A DNA stretch of 64,000 bases from a virus (lineage: Duplodnaviria > Heunggongvirae > Uroviricota > Caudoviricetes): the IMG/VR virus record IMGVR_UViG_3300024346_000020; one strand, 5' to 3'. Made by a program: the position numbers and the translations under genes. Of the stretch, positions 2,357 to 59,199 are shown piece by piece. The stretch's first letter is position 1. Each line of letters opens with the position of its first letter. The notes under the pieces were generated by a model. That model saw only the letters and a list, made by a program, of their open reading frames with translations. It was not told the origin of the DNA and ran no database searches.

Positions 2357-2684
2357 AAAATATATAAAAATAATGGCTACAGAAACAAATCCACTAGAAA
2401 TAACTACAATAAATGGTTATTTTTCAAAAATATATGAAGGAAAGCAACTTGGAGACTTTTATGCTGCACTAAATGATAGACTATCTTCTTATGTACAAAA
2501 GTAGAGCATAGTGATCCGGTGGTTCCGCATGGAAGGGCCATCGCTCAAAGGATAAAAGAAGCTATAGAAAGATTTGTTATGGACGGAACTCCGATCCCTC
2601 AATCGATAATTGATGAAAGAGAAGAATTAAAAACACAATATCATAATACAATAAACTCTTTATAAAGATTTCTATATAAGTTAG

Positions 2685-51253: not shown

Positions 51254-51574
51254 ATGGGATTTATAACAGAATTAAATGAAACAAACTATAACGGATTTGT
51301 AGAAAGTGGAGTGGCTTTAGTAGACATATATGCGATTTGGTGCGGTCCGTGCAAACAAATTGCACCTATTGTAGATCAATTTTCAATTGATTTTCAAGGA
51401 AGAGTAGCAGTAGGTAAATTAGACGCATCTCCAAATGGAGATAAAGTAGCTGAGTTAGGTATCAGAAACATTCCTACAATCTTGATTTATAAAGATGGAG
51501 AAATTGTAGATAAAAGTGTTGGTATGACAACTAAAGAAAAATTGTCTGAACTTGTTGAGCAATACTTAAACTAA
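51254..51574 (+). CDS. trxA: thioredoxin
   Basis: WCGPCK active site, 106 aa, canonical spacing (VDIYAIWCGPCKQIAP...IPTILIYKDGE). Confidence 0.85.
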   Translation: MGFITELNETNYNGFVESGVALVDIYAIWCGPCKQIAPIVDQFSIDFQGRVAVGKLDASPNGDKVAELGIRNIPTILIYKDGEIVDKSVGMTTKEKLSELVEQYLN

Positions 51575-52149
51575 TGGAAGAAATAGATTATTTATATGAT
51601 CTAATTAGTAAAACTGAGACAACCTTAATTGGTTATCGATTTTCAGATGAAAGAATTAAAGATGAAATTATTTCTAATCTTGGAAAAACCAAGACAATAG
51701 ATTTAAGTTCATCTTTTTCTATGAAGTCGATCCTTAGAGATATAAAAATTGATCAAGTTTTAAATGAAGAAGAAAAAATTGATTATCTACTATTAGATAT
51801 AAATGATATAAGAAATTCTTATATTGAACAAAGAAACTTTACTAATGAAGATATAAGTCGAGCAGGTATAATAAAAAATATTATTTACGATGTAAGAGAT
51901 TGTTTAAGAGATAGTAGAAATGGTAAAGATATTAGTGATATTAAATTGATACTTACTTGTCCACTACAATCTAATGGTTTAAATAGAGATGGTAATATGA
52001 TTGATGCTTTTATGGGTGGTTCGACACCTTTATATTATGCAGATTTAGCAATGATTATAACTCAACAAAGTAATGATAAGATAATACAAGTCATTAAGAA
52101 CAGAGAATCAGATTCTCACAAAATTATAAAATATGATAGCATTAAATAG
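51574..52149 (+). CDS. hypothetical protein
   Basis: ORF; ATG overlaps the upstream TAA. Confidence 0.4.
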   Translation: MEEIDYLYDLISKTETTLIGYRFSDERIKDEIISNLGKTKTIDLSSSFSMKSILRDIKIDQVLNEEEKIDYLLLDINDIRNSYIEQRNFTNEDISRAGIIKNIIYDVRDCLRDSRNGKDISDIKLILTCPLQSNGLNRDGNMIDAFMGGSTPLYYADLAMIITQQSNDKIIQVIKNRESDSHKIIKYDSIK

Positions 52150-52564
52150 AAGAGCTCGTTACGAATATACTTTTATAGAGGAATTTGACTGCGGGATAAT
52201 ATTGGTTGGTAGTGAGGTAAAATCCGTTAGAATGGGTAATGTTACTTTAATAGATGCATTTATTTTTATAAAAGATAATGAGGTTTGGATAAAAAACTTA
52301 AAGATTGCTGCTTATAAATCAGCACATACTTTAGACATACACGAAGAAAATCGTGATAAGAAACTTCTTTTAAATAAAAAAGAGATTACTCGAATCAAAC
52401 GAAAATTGGAAGACAAAGGTATAACCGCGATTCCACTTGGTATGTTTGTTAAGAATAATAGAATTAAAATCAAAATAGCAGTTGCTAAGGGGAAGAAAAC
52501 TTGGGATAAAAGAGCTTCAATTAAGGAGAGAGACCTTACCAGAGAGATGCAAAGAAATATATAA
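52133..52564 (+). CDS. smpB: SsrA-binding protein SmpB
   Basis: NRRARYEYTFIEEFDCGIILVGSEVKS...LLLNKKEI...IKIKIAVAKGKKTWDKRASIKERD matches the SmpB family along its full length (143 aa). Confidence 0.85.
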   Translation: MIALNRRARYEYTFIEEFDCGIILVGSEVKSVRMGNVTLIDAFIFIKDNEVWIKNLKIAAYKSAHTLDIHEENRDKKLLLNKKEITRIKRKLEDKGITAIPLGMFVKNNRIKIKIAVAKGKKTWDKRASIKERDLTREMQRNI

Positions 52565-52567
52565 TGT

Positions 52568-52921
52568 ATGAAATTGACCTTATTAGAATATCTCGATAAG
52601 CTACATCTTTCAACTACTGAGGAGCAAGCCATTGATACACTCAAAAAACTTATGAAGAACTTTAGTTCTAATAATTATAAAAGTGTTATTATGACTAATC
52701 CATATTTTAAATCATTAGCACTTGATTTAAAAGAAGAGGTGAGTAAAGAAATGAATTTAATGAGAAATTTAATAACTGTTGAAATTGATAATCTTAATTC
52801 ACAATTAAATAAAACTAAAAATACAGCAGACTTTTTAAAATTAAAGGATCTAAGAAGAGAGTGTGTTCATCTTTTAACAGATTTAGAAGCCAGACAACAT
52901 GACTTATACCTACTATCTTAA
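52568..52921 (+). CDS. hypothetical coiled-coil protein
   Basis: ORF only. Confidence 0.4.
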   Translation: MKLTLLEYLDKLHLSTTEEQAIDTLKKLMKNFSSNNYKSVIMTNPYFKSLALDLKEEVSKEMNLMRNLITVEIDNLNSQLNKTKNTADFLKLKDLRRECVHLLTDLEARQHDLYLLS

Positions 52922-54586
52922 AAGGTCTTTAAATACTTTTTCAAGTTTATCTAATCTTTTAACATCACTATTATACTCTTCTTCACTATATCTTAATCTA
53001 CTCATAATTAGTTTTAATGATGAAGTATCAGCATCTAAGTTTATAAGAATATTTTTAGTATTTCTAGAAAGTATAAAAATATCATCTTGTACTAATTCAT
53101 ACAATGATGCTAGTCTAACTTGTATTGATTTAAGATCTTCAATAGTTTCTATATTTCTATTTTTAATTGAATTTGATAAAAGTTGACCTATATTAGTTAT
53201 TCTGTCAATTACATCAGACATTCTTTCTGCATTTTGATTATCAGTATCTTTAATAATTTTAATACTATAGGAGTAAGCAGTAGTTTGTTTTAAACGTCTT
53301 TTCTTAATAGTTTTAAACAATTCATATGTTTTCTCAAAGTTATATGAGTTATCACTTTCTGACATCAATCTATACAAAAATGTAATAAAGTCTGATAATC
53401 TATCAATATAAGAACTACTATTATAAAGAGCAATTATAAAATAATCTCCAATAATTGATGATAAAACAACTGAGTTGAGATTTTTAAATTCTTGTTTATC
53501 TTTTTCAATTCCTAATTTTGTAAATAAAGTAGTTAAATACCTTTCAACATTTTCTTTTCTAATATCATCTGGTTTCCTTAAAGCGAGAGCATCCTTTTTA
53601 ACAGACTTTCTTCTTTTTATAATATCAGATGTAGTATCATCAACATTTTTAATGATTATATCATCAAGAAAAAGAACGATTGCGAAGTTTGCTTCTTTAT
53701 TTACTTTATTAAAAATTGAAGTTTTTCTCTGATTCCATTCTTCCAAAGTAGTTCCATCTAATGGTAAATTGAAATCCCAAACAGATTCTTCTGTTTTATT
53801 CATTTTATCCAAATCTTCATCCTTAAATCTTAATGGATTTTCATCAAGTATTACTTTATGTAACATAAGATGATCATCATTCTCACTTTCTGGACTTCCT
53901 AATGACCAAGCATATTGATAAGCTGCATTACCTGCATATAGATTATATCTGTCTGGTAACACGATATTATTTCTAGTTGAACCAGGATCTGATCCTTCAT
54001 GTTCATTTTGATAAAAGTAATATTGAAGTTCATCATCATTTCTTCTATTATCAGCATATATTTCACCAAAAGTTAAATAAGAAGGATCTCCATTGAAATC
54101 ATCACCACAAACCATTACTACTTTATCACCTGTTACTAAATCTCCTAATCTCGCTGGAGTAATAACACCACCTATTCTATATTCTCTAGCTAGGTAAGCC
54201 AAATGTGATTGATCTAAACCTTCGCCATTACTCATCATAGAACCATTATAAGAATTATACTTGTTATAATCCATAGTTTTATTTCCAGATCCAGTACTAC
54301 ATAAATAACCTTTTTCTAATGAAAACCAATATTTAATACAGTAAGTACCAGATGGATTCATTGCTTCTTCACCTTTACCAACAACTAAAGCTTTATTTAC
54401 CGGTAAGTATTGTATTTCTTTATCGCTTAATGTACTTAGTGGGAAATCAAATTTATCAGCAAGTTTTTTTAATACTTTTAAAAACTCTCTTGTTGGATTA
54501 TCACTCTTTATCTTTTTATTTAGAAATGAAAGTATTGCACTAACTCTATCAGATTCAAACCCTTCGTATAATTTTAAGTATTTCAT
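52913..54586 (-). CDS. hypothetical 557-aa protein with a capsid-targeting-like N-terminus (MKYLKLYEGFE)
   Basis: Long ORF, convergent with the upstream plus-strand block; N-terminal motif shared with other ORFs. Confidence 0.55.
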   Translation of the reverse strand: MKYLKLYEGFESDRVSAILSFLNKKIKSDNPTREFLKVLKKLADKFDFPLSTLSDKEIQYLPVNKALVVGKGEEAMNPSGTYCIKYWFSLEKGYLCSTGSGNKTMDYNKYNSYNGSMMSNGEGLDQSHLAYLAREYRIGGVITPARLGDLVTGDKVVMVCGDDFNGDPSYLTFGEIYADNRRNDDELQYYFYQNEHEGSDPGSTRNNIVLPDRYNLYAGNAAYQYAWSLGSPESENDDHLMLHKVILDENPLRFKDEDLDKMNKTEESVWDFNLPLDGTTLEEWNQRKTSIFNKVNKEANFAIVLFLDDIIIKNVDDTTSDIIKRRKSVKKDALALRKPDDIRKENVERYLTTLFTKLGIEKDKQEFKNLNSVVLSSIIGDYFIIALYNSSSYIDRLSDFITFLYRLMSESDNSYNFEKTYELFKTIKKRRLKQTTAYSYSIKIIKDTDNQNAERMSDVIDRITNIGQLLSNSIKNRNIETIEDLKSIQVRLASLYELVQDDIFILSRNTKNILINLDADTSSLKLIMSRLRYSEEEYNSDVKRLDKLEKVFKDLLR

Positions 54587-54842
54587 AAACTATATATTAA
54601 AATATATTTTTTAAATTGAAACTTTATTGTATATTTGCATAATAAATAATGAGCTACTACAACTGACCTGTTAGAGAATAAGTTTTGGTCACATAGTTAT
54701 AGTTAGTGTTTATGGTAGTAATTAGCTGGGAAATACGTTTTCTTATACACTTTTAATAAAAACAGTGAACTACCTCGATATTAAATATAAAATATGAAAA
54801 TAAAAGTGTATTTTTTTTTAGAAATTATTAAAAATAAATATT

Positions 54843-55247
54843 ATGAATTTAAAAGAACAAATTAGCAAAGACTACATGACCGCTTTCAAAGAAAGAAATG
54901 TCGTAGCAAAGAACTTACTTTCTGTAGTGAAAGGAGAGATCCAAACTATTGAAAAAAATACAGGAGTAGATTGTCTTTCTGATGTAGAGGTAATTAAAAT
55001 TCTTAATAAAACTGCAAAATCTCTTAAAGAAGTTATCGAAATTTCTGGAGACGCTGAATCTATAACTCAATTAGAAATGGTTGAATCTTTACTTCCAGCT
55101 GCTATGACAAGAGAAGATGTTGTTGTAAAAGTTAGTGCACTTGTTGCATCAGGTATTACCAATGTTGGTGGAATTATGAAAGAGTTTGCTACTTTACAAG
55201 TGGATAGAAAAGTTGTATCAGAAGTTATTAAAGAAGTATTAGCATAA
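54843..55247 (+). CDS. yqeY: GatB/YqeY-domain protein
   Basis: MNLKEQISKDYMTAFKERNVVAKNLLSVVKGEIQ...TREDVVVKV... matches the YqeY family. Confidence 0.7.
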   Translation: MNLKEQISKDYMTAFKERNVVAKNLLSVVKGEIQTIEKNTGVDCLSDVEVIKILNKTAKSLKEVIEISGDAESITQLEMVESLLPAAMTREDVVVKVSALVASGITNVGGIMKEFATLQVDRKVVSEVIKEVLA

Positions 55248-56503
55248 TGAAAAATATAGTAGAAGAATTAAAATGGCGTGGGTTGGTACACGATATAATA
55301 CCAGGAACGGAGGATCAACTTTTAAAAGAAGCCACCACCTCTTATATTGGTTTTGATCCAACGTCAGATTCTCTACATATCGGTAGTTTAGTTCCAATCA
55401 TTCTTTTAAAACACATGAAGAATTTTGGACACAATCCTATCGCACTTGTTGGAGGTGCCACTGGTATGATCGGTGACCCCTCTGGTAAGTCAAATGAGAG
55501 AAATCTATTAGACGAAGAAGAACTTAATAAAAATGTTGAAGGTATTAAAAATACTCTTGAAAGATTTTTAGGTGATACTCCTGTGGTAAATAACTACGAT
55601 TGGATGTCAAAGTTTAGTTTCATAGACTTTGTAAGAGACATCGGTAAAAGAATTACTGTAAATTACATGTTATCTAAACAATCTGTAAAAAATCGTATAG
55701 AAGGTGAGGGAATGTCTTTCACTGAATTTACATACCAGTTGATTCAAGGATACGATTTCTACCATCTAAACAAAGAACATAACTGTTTATTACAAATGGG
55801 TGGTTCAGATCAATGGGGTAACATTACAACAGGAACTGAACTAATTCATAAAATGAATCCTGGTAGGGAAGCATTTGCTATGACATGCCCTTTACTAACT
55901 AAATCGGATGGTTCTAAGTTCGGAAAATCTGAAGGAGGTACAAATATATGGTTAGATAAAGATAAGACCTCTGTGTACAAGTTTTACCAATTTTGGATAA
56001 ATACTGATGATAATGATGCAGAGAAATACATTAAAATCTTTACATTTTTAGATAAAGAAACTATTGATAATTTAATAGAAGAACATAATAAAGCAAAGAA
56101 CTTATTTTTGTTACAAAAAACATTAGCAAGAGAAATAACTATTATGGTTCACGGTCAGCAAGAGTTTGAAAAGGCAGTAGAAGCTTCTAACATTTTATTT
56201 AATGGTGGAGATTTAAACTTACTTGATGAAGAATTATTTCTAGATATATTTAATGGAATACCACAAGCGAAAGTTCCTATGGAAGACATTCTTTCTGGTA
56301 TTACAATGACAGACATTCTATTTAAAACAGGTTTCTTAAAATCAAATAATGAAGCTAGAAGAGCTTTAAAAGAAAATTCAGTTGCAATAAATAAAATAAA
56401 AAGAGAAGAGGATTATATCGTAACAGATGTTGATTTGATAAATGATAAGTTTATCATACTACAAAGAGGTAAGAAAAGTTACTTCTTAGTTGAAGCATCA
56501 TAG
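55247..56503 (+). CDS. tyrS: tyrosyl-tRNA synthetase
   Basis: HIGH motif (LHIGSL), KMSKS motif (KFGKS), a TyrRS catalytic core (GGSDQWGNI) and a C-terminal S4-like domain. TAG stop. Confidence 0.85.
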   Translation: MKNIVEELKWRGLVHDIIPGTEDQLLKEATTSYIGFDPTSDSLHIGSLVPIILLKHMKNFGHNPIALVGGATGMIGDPSGKSNERNLLDEEELNKNVEGIKNTLERFLGDTPVVNNYDWMSKFSFIDFVRDIGKRITVNYMLSKQSVKNRIEGEGMSFTEFTYQLIQGYDFYHLNKEHNCLLQMGGSDQWGNITTGTELIHKMNPGREAFAMTCPLLTKSDGSKFGKSEGGTNIWLDKDKTSVYKFYQFWINTDDNDAEKYIKIFTFLDKETIDNLIEEHNKAKNLFLLQKTLAREITIMVHGQQEFEKAVEASNILFNGGDLNLLDEELFLDIFNGIPQAKVPMEDILSGITMTDILFKTGFLKSNNEARRALKENSVAINKIKREEDYIVTDVDLINDKFIILQRGKKSYFLVEAS

Positions 56504-57861: not shown

Positions 57862-58093
57862 ATTAGGTAGATAAGTAAACTTTTATTACTTTTGTACTAT
57901 AAAAATAACAAAAAAAACAAAAAGAGAGAATAAACTTTTAATATATAATAACAATGAGAACAAATTCAATACATACAAGCTTTAGTAAGTCGTTCAAGTG
58001 GTTTAGCCACAAGTTCGGATGTATGAGTATGTCGTTCTCAAAAGAAGATGTTATTGTAGGATAATGTCATAAAAGAGAATAAAACATAAACGT

Positions 58094-58127
58094 AAACCCG
58101 AACTTATAAAAAAGTTCGGGTTTTTTT
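58094..58127 (+). terminator. rho-independent terminator preceding the tRNA array
   Basis: aaaCCCGAACttataaaaaaGTTCGGGttttttt. Confidence 0.75.
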
Positions 58128-58136
58128 ATTTTATAA

Positions 58137-58222
58137 TCCCTCTTAGCTCAGTTGGTTTGCATTATGCTTAGAGCAATCGTCTTTTAAACGATGGGTCACA
58201 GGTTCGAATCCTGTAGGGGGAA
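58137..58222 (+). tRNA. tRNA-Lys (anticodon TTT) with an abnormally long D-loop (about 21 nt, extra GCAttaTGC mini-hairpin)
   Basis: Acceptor TCCCTCT/AGGGGGA; D-stem GCTC/GAGC; anticodon arm ATCGT-CTTTTAA-ACGAT; T-arm ACAGG-TTCGAAT-CCTGT; hand-folded. Confidence 0.55.
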
Positions 58223-58225
58223 CAA

Positions 58226-58723
58226 GACTTTTAATATATAAATAAAATTAAAAGTCAATTATGGAAAAATATTGTGGTACATGTAAAGAAGTTAAAAATA
58301 AAACTGAATTCAATAAAAATAAAGGTAGAAAAGATGGTTTAAACTCTATATGTAGAGTTTGTAGTAGGACTAATTCATATAATTATTATAAGGATAATAA
58401 GGAAATAATGAAGCCTATGATAAATGATAGTAAAAGGAAAAGAAAAATTGAAAGAATTAGATATATCTATCACTATTTTATGAAAAATCCTTGTATCGAT
58501 TGTGGGGAAACTAATCCGATAGTATTAGAATTCGATCATAGAGATAATGTTGAAAAGATAGATAATCTATGTGATATGATTAGTGAAGGTGCTGGTCTAG
58601 ATAAAATTAAAAATGAAATAGAAAAATGTGATGTTAGATGTGCGAATTGTCACCGAATAAGAACATCCATACAACAAAATTGGACTATGTTACAATTTAT
58701 ACAATAAAAAAGATTATTAAAAT
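58226..58723 (+). mobile_element. putative freestanding HNH homing-endonuclease insertion within the tRNA array
   Basis: HNH ORF at 58261..58707 sits between tRNA-Lys and the next tRNA; inference from phage precedent. Confidence 0.3.
58261..58707 (+). CDS. HNH endonuclease
   Basis: N-terminal CxxC...CxxC zinc finger (CGTCKEV...CRVCS) and an HNH core (LEFDHRDNVEKIDN...CANCHRIRT). Confidence 0.75.
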   Translation: MEKYCGTCKEVKNKTEFNKNKGRKDGLNSICRVCSRTNSYNYYKDNKEIMKPMINDSKRKRKIERIRYIYHYFMKNPCIDCGETNPIVLEFDHRDNVEKIDNLCDMISEGAGLDKIKNEIEKCDVRCANCHRIRTSIQQNWTMLQFIQ

Positions 58724-58796
58724 ACAGGTCAGCATAATGGTATGCACCAGGTCTCCAAAACCTCGGATGGAAAGAGTTCGACTCTCTTGGCTTGTG
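58724..58796 (+). tRNA. probable tRNA, anticodon CCA (Trp), atypical D-region
   Basis: T-arm AAGAG-TTCGACT-CTCTT; acceptor ACAGGTC/GGCTTGT with two G-U pairs; anticodon arm (C)AGGT-CTCCAAA-ACCT(C); needs software confirmation. Confidence 0.35.
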
Positions 58797-58806
58797 CAAA
58801 TATAAT

Positions 58807-58879
58807 GGACCTTTCGTATAGCTGGTGCGTACGTTGGACTGAAAATCCAAAGGACAGGGCTCGATTCCCTGAGGGTCCA
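58807..58879 (+). tRNA. tRNA-Phe (GAA)
   Basis: Acceptor GGACCTT/AGGGTCC; D-loop with GG; anticodon arm TTGGA-CTGAAAA-TCCAA; T-arm CAGGG-CTCGATT-CCCTG. Confidence 0.6.
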
Positions 58880-58891
58880 CTTTGATGGTAG

Positions 58892-58954
58892 CTTAATGGT
58901 TAAAGCACTTGGTTGTGAACCAAGGGATTGCGGGTTCGAGTCCCGTCTGTCAAC
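58892..58954 (+). tRNA. tRNA with anticodon GTG (His-type) but no G-1; canonical 73-nt fold
   Basis: Acceptor TTGATGG/CTGTCAA; D GCTT-AATGGTTA-AAGC; anticodon arm CTTGG-TTGTGAA-CCAAG; T-arm GCGGG-TTCGAGT-CCCGT; discriminator C. Confidence 0.5.
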
Positions 58955-58961
58955 CCAAAAT

Positions 58962-59034
58962 GGTGATTGTCGTCCAAAGGTCAGGATGCCTCCCTGTGAA
59001 GGAGGAGATGTGGTTTCGAGATCCATCATTCACC
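58962..59034 (+). tRNA. tRNA-His (GTG) with G-1:C73
   Basis: G at -1; acceptor GTGATTG/CATTCAC (one U-U); anticodon arm CCTCC-CTGTGAA-GGAGG; T-arm GTGGT-TTCGAGA-TCCAT; 3' ...C-CA encoded. Confidence 0.5.
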
Positions 59035-59041
59035 CAAATTC

Positions 59042-59115
59042 TCTCCCGTAGCTTAAATGGAGAAAGCCGCATACTTTTAATATGCAGACTACCGGATCGT
59101 ACCCGGTCGGGGGAA
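59042..59115 (+). tRNA. tRNA-Lys (TTT), second copy, with an unusual T-loop ATCGTAC (A54/T58 swapped)
   Basis: Acceptor TCTCCCG/CGGGGGA; D GCTT-AAATGGAGA-AAGC; anticodon arm GCATA-CTTTTAA-TATGC; T-arm ACCGG-ATCGTAC-CCGGT. Confidence 0.45.
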
Positions 59116-59123
59116 CAAAAATT

Positions 59124-59195
59124 GCGGATTTAGCTGAGACGGTTTAGCGTATGGTTGAAGCCCATAAGAGGTCAATTCGATTTTGACAATCCGCA
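59124..59195 (+). tRNA. tRNA-Phe (GAA), second copy (G37)
   Basis: Perfect acceptor GCGGATT/AATCCGC; D GCTG-AGACGGTT-TAGC; anticodon arm TATGG-TTGAAGC-CCATA; T-arm GTCAA-TTCGATT-TTGAC. Confidence 0.6.
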
Positions 59196-59199
59196 CAAA

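What the first reader, a model, noticed from the sequence alone, without database searches (positions are those of the whole stretch)
52133..52564. Full-length SmpB homolog without a visible tmRNA in the window
The SmpB family match spans the full length of the ORF (see feature evidence). None of the noncoding gaps in this window (2357-2684, 54587-54842, 57862-58136, 59331-59514) contains the tmRNA tRNA-like ends (5' GGGG...GAUUCGAC, 3' T-arm plus ...CCACCA) or a plausible tag-peptide reading frame
Basis: seen in the sequence. Interest (0 to 1): 0.6.

Follow-up and report, generated by a model that had tools for sequence, protein, structure and literature searches.

The report
Megaphage SmpB gene lacking a tmRNA
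A giant freshwater bacteriophage carries an intact, strongly conserved copy of the bacterial ribosome-rescue protein SmpB, but neither it nor its fully sequenced relatives encode the partner RNA (tmRNA), so the phage protein most likely works with the host's tmRNA to keep ribosomes free during infection.

Summary
ORF 52133-52564(+) is a full-length SmpB: Pfam 173.7 bits, NCBIfam equivalog 176 bits against a cut-off of 130. It keeps the residues defined as functional (Tyr24, aromatic at 55 and 136, LLL patch, KGKK, DKR, basic tail). dN/dS across its clade is 0.05-0.19.

The window is about a tenth of a freshwater megaphage genome; contigs of the same lineage reach 612-649 kb, and the closest records are the huge phages LR745206 and LR756502. 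ARAGORN, Rfam covariance models and a tmRNA profile HMM find no tmRNA in the window or in 77 kb more of the same phage, which includes three further tRNA arrays. ARAGORN and the profile HMM find none in either complete relative (635 and 642 kb); Rfam covered only LR745206. Positive controls worked, including six phage tmRNAs at about 30% GC. The one weak tmRNA-like hit is the T-arm of an intron-bearing tRNA-Met.

SmpB sits in a conserved operon (thioredoxin, RecA-fold ORF, SmpB, 117-aa ORF, YqeY) next to tRNA arrays. Best reading (inferred, about 0.6): a working SmpB that partners the host's tmRNA. Phage SmpB was already mentioned by Al-Shayeb et al. 2020. The lineage-wide lack of a tmRNA is a modest new point. 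Only about 120 kb of this phage's own genome could be scanned.

The parts
52133..52564 (+). smpB: full-length phage-encoded SmpB (143 aa)
   Evidence: Pfam 173.7 bits. NCBIfam equivalog 176.2 bits against a cut-off of 130. PDB 1p6v at 6e-36. Functional residues retained and 60 of 143 columns >=98% conserved in 122 clade sequences. dN/dS 0.05-0.19.
51574..52149 (+). Conserved upstream ORF (191 aa) whose end overlaps the smpB start by 17 nt. RecA-superfamily fold without a Walker A motif; function unknown.
52568..52921 (+). Conserved downstream ORF (117 aa), 4 nt after the smpB stop; predicted helical, function unknown
   Evidence: Follows smpB directly in most clade loci (one 284-aa ORF intervenes in L039) and in LR745206 and LR756502 at 37-40% identity. 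Only coiled-coil noise in Pfam and PDB.
51254..51574 (+). Thioredoxin, first recognisable gene of the conserved block
   Evidence: Pfam PF00085 at 85.1 bits. Position conserved in all relatives.
52913..54586 (-). Conserved 557-aa ORF of unknown function on the opposite strand
   Evidence: No family hit. Homolog at the same position in both complete relatives at 28% identity.
54843..55247 (+). YqeY/GatB-like protein (translation-related)
   Evidence: PF09424 precomputed hit. PHROG 1460 'tRNA amidotransferase' at 61.5 bits. Conserved in relatives at 59-62% identity.
55247..56503 (+). Tyrosyl-tRNA synthetase, specific to the window's subclade
   Evidence: PHROG 9270 at 469 bits. PF00579. No homolog in LR745206 or LR756502.
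58137..59965 (+). tRNA array (Trp, Phe, 2x His, Lys, Phe, Met with insertion, Arg, several Ser, and a Lys-like tRNA with a D-loop insertion), interrupted by an HNH endonuclease gene. It contains no tmRNA.
   Evidence: ARAGORN. Rfam. HNH endonuclease at 58261-58707 matches PHROG 2255. Syntenic arrays in relatives.
59200..59331 (+). tRNA-Met(CAT) with a 51-nt insertion after position 37; the source of the only tmRNA-like partial hit
   Evidence: aragorn -i. The Rfam tmRNA hit at 59306-59322 is its T-arm. Conserved in the clade, with compensatory acceptor-stem changes and a 51-84-nt insert. G3-C70 and U73 mean it lacks alanine identity (read from the sequence).

Best explanation
This is a functional SmpB encoded by a freshwater megaphage with a genome of roughly 620-650 kb. 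It is a long-resident, selected core gene of the lineage and sits in a conserved operon beside translation genes and tRNA arrays. The phage appears to encode no tmRNA. The most likely mechanism is this. During infection the phage SmpB binds the tRNA-like domain of the HOST's alanyl-tmRNA. The complex enters ribosomes stalled on truncated (non-stop) mRNAs, with the SmpB tail in the empty mRNA channel, and carries out ordinary trans-translation. That would maintain or boost ribosome rescue when host gene expression is shut down and host or phage mRNAs are being cleaved. Shown here: identity, intactness, purifying selection, phage context, and absence of a detectable tmRNA. Inferred: the partnership with host tmRNA and the benefit to the phage.
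For: The SmpB call passes curated equivalog cut-offs over its full length. Residues defined as functional in E. coli (PMC4151336, PMC8363625) are kept and nearly invariant in 122 clade sequences. They are Tyr24 and an aromatic at 55 (contacts upstream of the tmRNA resume codon), Leu90-92 (packs on tmRNA G19), K131-G-K-K134 with the Gly132 hinge, an aromatic at 136 (G530 stacking), D137-K-R139, K143, R145 and R153. The retention of tmRNA-specific contacts argues for a tmRNA partner. dN/dS is 0.05-0.19 at dS 0.5-0.8. Phage context: the best phage hits are the huge phages LR745206 (63% aa identity), LR756502 (53%) and the Lak phages (46-50%). More than 100 homolog clusters at 67-100% identity lie on contigs up to 612-649 kb. 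Synteny is conserved. No tmRNA was found in the window, in a 7.8-kb flank, in 77.5 kb of the same phage species' IMG/VR contig with four tRNA arrays, in 5 + 8 other clade loci, or in two complete relatives of 634,780 and 642,428 bp. Detectors were validated on E. coli ssrA, on 35 of 80 bacterial smpB loci from many phyla and on six phage tmRNAs at about 30% GC. Portability: H. pylori SmpB, only 34.6% identical to E. coli SmpB, restores growth and lambda-immP22 plating to E. coli lacking smpB, whereas H. pylori tmRNA does not restore plating. Loss of smpB or ssrA lowers that phage's plating 10,000-fold (PMC2862035). So a diverged SmpB can use a foreign tmRNA and ribosome, and phages can depend on ribosome rescue.
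Against: No experiment or expression data exist. The host is unknown, so compatibility with its tmRNA cannot be checked. Only about 120 kb of this phage's own genome (roughly 620-650 kb) was scanned; the genome-wide absence rests on relatives whose SmpB is 63% and 53% identical. LR756502 was scanned with ARAGORN and nhmmer only, and Rfam was run at gathering threshold on LR745206, so a very divergent tmRNA could escape. In bacteria tmRNA and SmpB act 1:1, so extra SmpB helps only if host SmpB becomes limiting, which is unproven. E. coli Trp147 is Leu/Ile here and the tail is about 5 residues shorter. Both are within natural variation (Aquifex and M. tuberculosis SmpB aligned), but the effect is untested.
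Confidence: 0.6

Rival explanations
On this view 'SmpB without tmRNA' is a sampling artefact.
For: Only the window plus about 57 kb more of the same species could be scanned. Al-Shayeb et al. report both tmRNAs and SmpB among huge phages. Other IMG/VR phages at about 30% GC do carry tmRNAs.
Against: Two complete relatives with the same SmpB operon and tRNA-array layout have none across 635 and 642 kb. The four tRNA arrays of the window's own phage, the most likely location, have none.
Confidence: 0.12
2. The SmpB is neofunctionalised or antagonistic. It might act without productive trans-translation, for example by sequestering host tmRNA, occupying the A site of stalled ribosomes, altering RNase R stability, or acting with its two conserved operon partners in a phage-specific process.
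For: No cognate RNA is encoded. Two lineage-specific ORFs of unknown function have stayed fused to smpB at 30-40% identity, one of them a RecA-fold protein lacking a P-loop. The nearest cellular SmpBs are only 37-48% identical, so there has been time to diverge in function.
Against: Every residue class needed for productive trans-translation is conserved under strong purifying selection, including the resume-codon contacts Tyr24 and aromatic 55 and the DKR/basic tail needed for accommodation. A pure decoy would not need these. The gene scores well above the equivalog cut-offs.
Confidence: 0.13
3. The phage encodes a non-canonical partner RNA that current tmRNA detectors do not recognise, for example a highly divergent or split tmRNA or a tRNA-like RNA from the arrays.
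For: The arrays contain unusual tRNA-like genes: a tRNA-Met with a 51-84-nt conserved insertion, a tRNA with a D-loop insertion, and odd anticodon loops in the relatives. Relatives also carry large structured RNAs such as GOLLD. Detectors are tuned to known tmRNAs.
Against: The inserted tRNA-Met has a normal D-arm, a U-CAU-A anticodon loop, G3-C70 and U73, so it lacks the alanine identity that tmRNA needs. Relaxed ARAGORN gives only artefacts inside ORFs or over tRNAs. Rfam at E <= 10 on the window and nhmmer with --max find nothing beyond T-arms.
Confidence: 0.08
4. The SmpB gene is bacterial DNA that was mis-binned or chimerically assembled into a phage contig, or host flank as in prophage records.
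For: Many 'phage' database hits to SmpB are host flanks of prophages integrated at ssrA, for example L022, where E. coli smpB and ssrA sit beside a prophage.
Against: The same gene in the same operon is found on independent assemblies from many samples, including 624-640-kb contigs and two manually closed genomes. GC content is about 28%, like the rest of the window. Neighbours are phage-lineage ORFs. No bacterial genome carries a copy above 48% identity.
Confidence: 0.01

Closest known systems
Bacterial SmpB (SsrA-binding protein; PF01668 / TIGR00086), e.g. E. coli P0A832 and Aquifex aeolicus 1p6v
   Same: Alignable over the full length, 40% identical to E. coli SmpB, E = 6e-36 to 1p6v. Same functional motifs: Tyr24, aromatic 55, LLL patch, KGKK, aromatic 136, DKR and a basic C-terminal helix.
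   Different: Encoded by a phage, not a cell. No tmRNA gene nearby or, in the relatives, anywhere in the genome, whereas 35 of 80 bacterial smpB loci have ssrA within 3 kb. His22 is Tyr, His136 is Trp, Trp147 is Leu. The N-terminal extension is absent and the tail is about 5 residues shorter than in E. coli. At most 48% identical to any cellular SmpB sampled.
SmpB genes of huge phages (Al-Shayeb et al. 2020, PMC7162821): LR745206.1 (Ig12092_scaffold_5), LR756502.1 (LacPavin_0818_WC45), and the Lak megaphages
   Same: Same gene family and the same conserved operon (ligase, sigma70, Gad2-like, thioredoxin, unk191, SmpB, unk117, YqeY) followed by tRNA arrays. Similar genome size and about 29-31% GC. 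Those SmpBs are annotated in the paper's supplementary GenBank files.
   Different: The window's SmpB is only 63%, 53% and 46-50% identical to them. Its subclade has additionally gained a TyrRS. The paper mentions 'tmRNAs and SmpB' together and does not say that these SmpB-bearing genomes lack a tmRNA.
Phage-encoded tmRNAs (here: IMG/VR contigs behind L223, L225, L226, L230, L232; tags ATEEVTVA/ATEQVTVA)
   Same: These phages also intervene in the trans-translation pathway, and have similar low GC (about 30%).
   Different: The arrangement is the opposite. They carry the RNA but no SmpB within +-10 kb, whereas this lineage carries the protein but not the RNA.
Host smpB-ssrA loci flanking prophages (e.g. 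Escherichia phage 500465-1 record NC_049342, L022)
   Same: They appear as 'SmpB in a phage record'.
   Different: There smpB and ssrA are host chromosomal genes beside an integrated prophage, next to recN, bamE and ratA, and the tmRNA is present. They are not phage genes.

Membership tests
SmpB protein family (PF01668 / TIGR00086 / NF003843) | Full-length match to the family model above the curated cut-off | tested here: met
   Pfam 173.7 bits (cut-off 27), profile positions 1-140 of 143. NF003843 at 176.2 bits (cut-off 130). TIGR00086 at 165 bits (cut-off 119.1).
SmpB protein family (PF01668 / TIGR00086 / NF003843) | Sequence homology to structurally solved SmpB over the core and tail | tested here: met
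   15 distinct PDB SmpB sequences matched. Best is 1p6v_A at E = 6e-36, query residues 2-142 on chain residues 9-149. The fold itself was not modelled here.
SmpB protein family (PF01668 / TIGR00086 / NF003843) | C-terminal tail motifs required for function: KGKK at 131-134 with the Gly132 hinge, an aromatic at 136, DKR at 137-139, and downstream basic residues (PMC4151336, PMC8363625) | tested here: met
   K119-G-K-K122, W124, D125-K-R127, K131, R133 and R141 in the window protein. All are nearly invariant in 122 clade sequences. Trp147 is replaced by Leu/Ile.
SmpB protein family (PF01668 / TIGR00086 / NF003843) | tmRNA-contact residues: Tyr24 and an aromatic at 55 (upstream of the resume codon), and the Leu90-92 patch (tmRNA G19) (PMC8363625) | tested here: met
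   Y12, F43 and L78-L80 in the window protein. In the clade: Y in 119 of 122, F in 122 of 122, L in 122 of 122.
SmpB protein family (PF01668 / TIGR00086 / NF003843) | Binds tmRNA and supports trans-translation on stalled ribosomes | not testable with these tools
   This needs biochemistry or complementation. The only indirect support is residue conservation and purifying selection.
Self-contained tmRNA-SmpB trans-translation system (both partners in one genome) | A tmRNA (ssrA) gene with an Ala-identity tRNA-like domain and a tag reading frame in the same genome | tested here: not met
   None in the window, in about 57 kb more of the same phage, or in two complete relatives, by ARAGORN, Rfam CMs and nhmmer (LR756502 by ARAGORN and nhmmer only), with working positive controls. 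Caveat: the window phage's own genome is only about 20% covered.
Huge-phage (Mahaphage/Lak-related) translation-gene island | Located on a phage genome above 500 kb, with synteny to the LR745206 and LR756502 SmpB region and adjacent tRNA arrays | tested here: met
   Best phage hits. Clade contigs of 612-649 kb. 11 of 16 neighbouring window proteins have a syntenic match in LR745206 and 11 in LR756502. tRNA arrays are in the same order.

The most novel reading that the evidence does not exclude
The megaphage lineage keeps SmpB, together with its two always-linked unknown partners (a P-loop-less RecA-fold protein and a 117-aa helical protein), not simply to top up host ribosome rescue but to re-programme it. 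It could capture the host's tmRNA for a phage-specific outcome such as altered tagging, selective rescue of ribosomes for phage mRNAs, or countering RNase-based abortive-infection defences. Alternatively it could work with an unrecognised phage-encoded partner RNA from the tRNA arrays. Either would be a new mode of viral takeover of bacterial translation quality control.
Probability: 0.1. Interest if true: 0.75.

Novelty: new member of a known kind. Interest (0 to 1): 0.4.

Why it matters
Trans-translation is nearly universal in bacteria and is an antibiotic target. Some phages need it; lambda-immP22 plates 10,000-fold worse without smpB or ssrA (PMC2862035). A widespread megaphage lineage maintains only the protein half of the system, under strong selection and apparently without the RNA half. 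This suggests that SmpB supply, not tmRNA, becomes limiting or worth controlling during long infections by very large phages. Some other phages do the reverse and carry only the tmRNA. The prediction is cheap to test: complement an smpB deletion strain with the phage gene, and test binding to tmRNA. It also warns annotators that a 'missing tmRNA' next to a phage smpB can be real, not an assembly gap. The finding is incremental, because phage SmpB genes were already reported in 2020.

Tried and rejected
1. The weak Rfam tmRNA hit at 59306-59322 (13 bits) is the T-arm of an intron-bearing tRNA-Met. That RNA has G3-C70 and U73, not alanine identity.

2. Relaxed ARAGORN (ps80-90) gave only 'permuted' candidates, inside long ORFs or overlapping tRNA arrays. 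These were rejected as artefacts.

3. nhmmer with a 42-tmRNA profile and with a phage-only profile gave only hits with E > 0.8, mostly short tRNA T-arm matches.

4. The supplement of Al-Shayeb et al. was searched for per-genome tmRNA calls. No 'tmRNA' term occurs in the 200 files held; only SmpB CDS annotations were found.

5. Host or origin inference from the nearest cellular SmpBs failed. Identities are 37-48%, spread over Treponema, Flavobacteriales, Actinomycetota, Chlamydiota, Chitinophagaceae and others, with no usable signal.

6. The flanking ORFs were tested as possible rescue factors. There were no Pfam, PHROG or PDB sequence hits. The unk191 model gives only a generic RecA-superfamily fold. 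No GGQ motif is visible in either sequence, so neither looks ArfB-like. unk117 was not modelled.

7. Leftward walking from the window failed because the first ORF (209-2356) is not on record.

8. The review PMC3358797 is not held. Residue roles were taken from PMC4151336 and PMC8363625 instead.

9. Bacterial contamination or a prophage host flank was rejected on synteny, GC content and recurrence in closed genomes.

Full report
OBSERVATION. The ORF at 52133-52564 (+) encodes a 143-aa protein. It matches the SmpB family from end to end: Pfam PF01668 at 173.7 bits over profile positions 1-140 of 143, and the NCBIfam equivalog models NF003843 (176.2 bits, cut-off 130) and TIGR00086 (165 bits, cut-off 119.1). 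It also matches 15 distinct solved SmpB sequences, best Aquifex 1p6v at E = 6e-36. ARAGORN and Rfam at gathering threshold find tRNAs but no tmRNA in the 64-kb window.

WHAT THE WINDOW IS. GC content is about 28% throughout. There is no nucleotide-level match to catalogued phages. By protein, the best SmpB matches are the 'huge phages' LR745206.1 (634,780 bp, 63% identity) and LR756502.1 (642,428 bp, 53%), followed by the Lak megaphages (46-50%). The exact protein occurs on metagenomic contigs from ENA and JGI samples; the longest returned is 94 kb, and one search lists 99 kb for its cluster. More than 100 homolog clusters at 67-100% identity lie on contigs up to 611,835, 623,734, 639,601 and 648,731 bp. 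The window is thus about a tenth of a megaphage genome, so absence of a tmRNA from the window alone says little.

IS A tmRNA HIDDEN IN THE WINDOW? Rfam at E <= 10 gave one tmRNA-model hit: 17 nt at 59306-59322, 13 bits, model positions 347-363, which is the T-arm. It lies in a roughly 320-nt 'hole' in the tRNA array. ARAGORN with introns enabled calls 59200-59331 as tRNA-Met(CAT) with a 51-nt insertion after position 37. The same gene, with inserts of 51-84 nt, is present in four other clade members. The acceptor stem shows compensatory changes (TAGAAAG/CTTTCTA, TAGAGAG/CTCTCTA, TAGAAGG/CCTTCTA). It has a normal D-arm, a U-CAU-A anticodon context, a G3-C70 pair and U73, so it lacks the alanine identity a tmRNA requires. 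ARAGORN at 80-90% of its thresholds gives only 'permuted' candidates over coding sequence or over tRNAs.

IS A tmRNA ELSEWHERE IN THE GENOME? I reassembled the closest complete relative, LR745206.1, from 13 overlapping pieces. ARAGORN in circular mode finds 59 tRNAs and no tmRNA. Rfam at gathering threshold over all 634,780 bp finds tRNAs, one GOLLD RNA and one DUF805b motif, and no tmRNA model hit. Relaxed ARAGORN again yields only artefacts. The second complete relative, LR756502.1, reassembled, has 46 tRNAs and no tmRNA even at 90% threshold.

For the window's own phage I walked along IMG/VR contig IMGVR_UViG_3300027749_005140 (131,933 bp, SmpB 99% identical) from position 14 kb to 92 kb. 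That stretch contains four tRNA arrays, the first shared with the window and the other three in the same order as in LR745206. ARAGORN finds no tmRNA there, and Rfam finds none in four loci covering 22.9-91.6 kb. Five further clade loci and eight IMG/VR SmpB loci also have none. A profile HMM built from 42 tmRNAs found nothing better than E = 0.8 in all these sequences; most of those hits are short T-arm matches.

CONTROLS. ARAGORN finds E. coli ssrA next to smpB in L022 at every threshold. It finds a tmRNA within 3 kb of smpB in 35 of 80 bacterial loci from many phyla. It also finds six tmRNAs in unrelated IMG/VR phage contigs of about 30% GC, fetched by chance through a Clp homolog (tags ATEEVTVA/ATEQVTVA). 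The negative result is therefore not a sensitivity problem for ordinary tmRNAs in AT-rich phage DNA. Three limits remain. Only about 120 kb of the window phage's own genome could be read. LR756502 was not scanned with Rfam. A very aberrant partner RNA would escape all three methods.

IS THE PROTEIN INTACT? Residue roles come from PMC4151336 and PMC8363625, and E. coli SmpB was translated from L022 as the ruler. The window protein and 121 clade relatives retain the following:
- Tyr24 (Y in 119 of 122) and the always-aromatic position 55 (F in 122 of 122). These hold the nucleotides upstream of the tmRNA resume codon.
- The Leu90-92 patch that packs on tmRNA G19 (122 of 122).
- K131-G-K-K134 with the Gly132 hinge (G in 122 of 122).
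- An aromatic at 136 (W, F, Y or H).
- D137-K-R139, K143, R145 and R153.

His22 is Tyr. Trp147 is Leu/Ile. Trp122 is Arg/Lys, as it is Lys in the Aquifex and Mycobacterium proteins aligned. The tail ends about five residues earlier than in E. coli. Sixty of 143 columns are at least 98% conserved. Pairwise dN/dS is 0.05-0.19 where dS is unsaturated (0.5-0.8). This is not a decaying copy. The conservation of contacts specific to tmRNA argues that a tmRNA is still its substrate.

CONTEXT. The order DNA ligase, sigma-70 factor, Gad2-like nucleotidyltransferase, thioredoxin, a ~190-aa ORF, SmpB, a 117-aa ORF, a ~550-aa ORF on the opposite strand, YqeY and then a tRNA array is conserved across the clade and in both distant complete relatives. 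TyrRS (55247-56503) is an addition of the window's subclade.

The nearest cellular SmpBs are only 37-48% identical and scattered over many phyla. The gene is therefore an old resident of the phage lineage and gives no host clue. About 57 kb downstream the same phage encodes a two-ring ClpC-like Hsp100 ATPase.

MECHANISM. Shown: a complete, selected SmpB in a megaphage that, as far as can be detected, has no tmRNA. Inferred: it acts on the host's tmRNA. Three points support this. First, tmRNA is close to universal in bacteria (trans-translation is found in more than 95% of bacterial genomes according to the abstract of PMC11257542 listed). Second, SmpB is portable: H. pylori SmpB, 34.6% identical to the E. 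coli protein, restores both growth and lambda-immP22 plating to E. coli lacking smpB. H. pylori tmRNA does not restore plating, and the authors conclude that tmRNAs co-evolve with the host translation machinery (PMC2862035). Third, phages can depend heavily on ribosome rescue, as shown by the 10,000-fold plating defect in the same paper.

A phage that shuts off host transcription and provokes mRNA cleavage would produce many non-stop complexes while host SmpB is no longer renewed. Supplying SmpB would keep the host's existing tmRNA pool working and return ribosomes to phage mRNAs. That last step is my inference and is untested.

RIVALS. A tmRNA in the unsampled part of the genome (0.12). A neofunctionalised or antagonistic SmpB, perhaps acting with its two linked partners (0.13). 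An unrecognised partner RNA (0.08). Bacterial contamination (0.01, rejected on synteny, composition and recurrence in closed genomes).

COMPARISON WITH WHAT IS KNOWN. Al-Shayeb et al. [quoted passage not shown] PHROGs already contains an unannotated SmpB family, phrog_6791. Phage-encoded SmpB is therefore known, and this gene is a new member of that kind. I did not find the following stated in the searchable literature: that these SmpB-bearing megaphage genomes lack a tmRNA altogether, that the gene is a selected core gene in a fixed operon, and that other phages show the reverse arrangement, with a tmRNA but no SmpB within 10 kb.

VERDICT. The feature is real but only moderately novel: interest 0.4, classed as a new member of a known kind.

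Noticed in passing
window 59200-59331 (also L036 15969-16109, L038 17990-18154, L039 17667-17803, L040 16499-16657): tRNA-Met(CAT) with a 51-84-nt insertion after position 37, conserved across the clade. The insert flanks are invariant, the central hairpin varies in length, and the acceptor stem shows compensatory changes. The insert is too short for a group I intron, and how (or whether) it is removed is unknown.
   Followed up: partly
window 58137-58222, 59788-59871, 59879-59965: Three more tRNA-like genes missed by default ARAGORN. One looks like Lys(UUU) with an ~11-nt mini-hairpin inserted in the D-loop (Rfam tRNA 33.6 bits). Two are long-variable-arm tRNAs whose anticodon loops read GGA and GCU (Ser?); one of them scores 42.7 bits on the tRNA-Sec model, below its cut-off of 47.
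   Followed up: partly
window 5932, 27482(-), 33058, 49187, 54591(-), 57936, 58229, 59357 (exact copies): The motif TTTTAATATATA has 8 exact copies and 20 copies with at most 1 mismatch, against 8.5 expected; no shuffle out of 100 reached 20. Most exact copies lie shortly (about 5-35 nt) upstream of start codons, and two precede short units in the tRNA array. It is probably a phage promoter element.
   Followed up: partly
window 57936-58130 and 59357-59512: Two paralogous units lie inside or beside the tRNA array. Each has the promoter-like motif, a 25-37-codon ORF and a strong GC-stem/T-run terminator. The second gives a weak His_leader hit (32 bits, cut-off 49). They could be small RNAs or leader-like peptides.
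   Followed up: no
window 58261-58707: An HNH homing-type endonuclease gene is inserted within the tRNA array (PHROG 2255, 108.9 bits). GIY-YIG endonucleases are inserted at variable places in the SmpB operon of relatives (L036, L039, L040).
   Followed up: partly
L017 28875-29280 (LR745206.1, about 420,875-421,280): A full-length GOLLD RNA (Rfam RF02032, 287 bits, cut-off 150) sits next to a tRNA cluster in the closest complete relative.
   Followed up: no
L212 8573-10678 (IMGVR_UViG_3300027749_005140, about 57 kb downstream of smpB): The same phage encodes a 701-aa two-ring Clp/Hsp100 ATPase (AAA, AAA_lid_9, UVR, AAA_2, ClpB_D2-small; ClpC-like). Next to it is an NAD-epimerase gene interrupted by an intein (Hint/Intein_splicing hits).
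   Followed up: partly
L223 4544-4929, L225 13715-14125, L226 15284-15693, L230 12952-13356, L232 8859-9244: Other IMG/VR phage contigs (about 30% GC, Clp homolog 58-62% identical) carry bona fide tmRNAs with the short tags ATEEVTVA/ATEQVTVA and have no SmpB within +-10 kb. This is the reverse of the window's arrangement.
   Followed up: partly
LR745206.1 407364-407437 and 419836-419923; L153 18701-18775: ARAGORN reports tRNA-like genes with 8-nt or 6-nt anticodon loops ('gtag', 'gt') within megaphage tRNA arrays. They could be frameshift-suppressor-like tRNAs or degenerate copies.
   Followed up: no
window 55247-56503: Tyrosyl-tRNA synthetase is present in the window's subclade but has no homolog in LR745206 or LR756502, so it is a recent gain next to the conserved YqeY gene.
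   Followed up: partly
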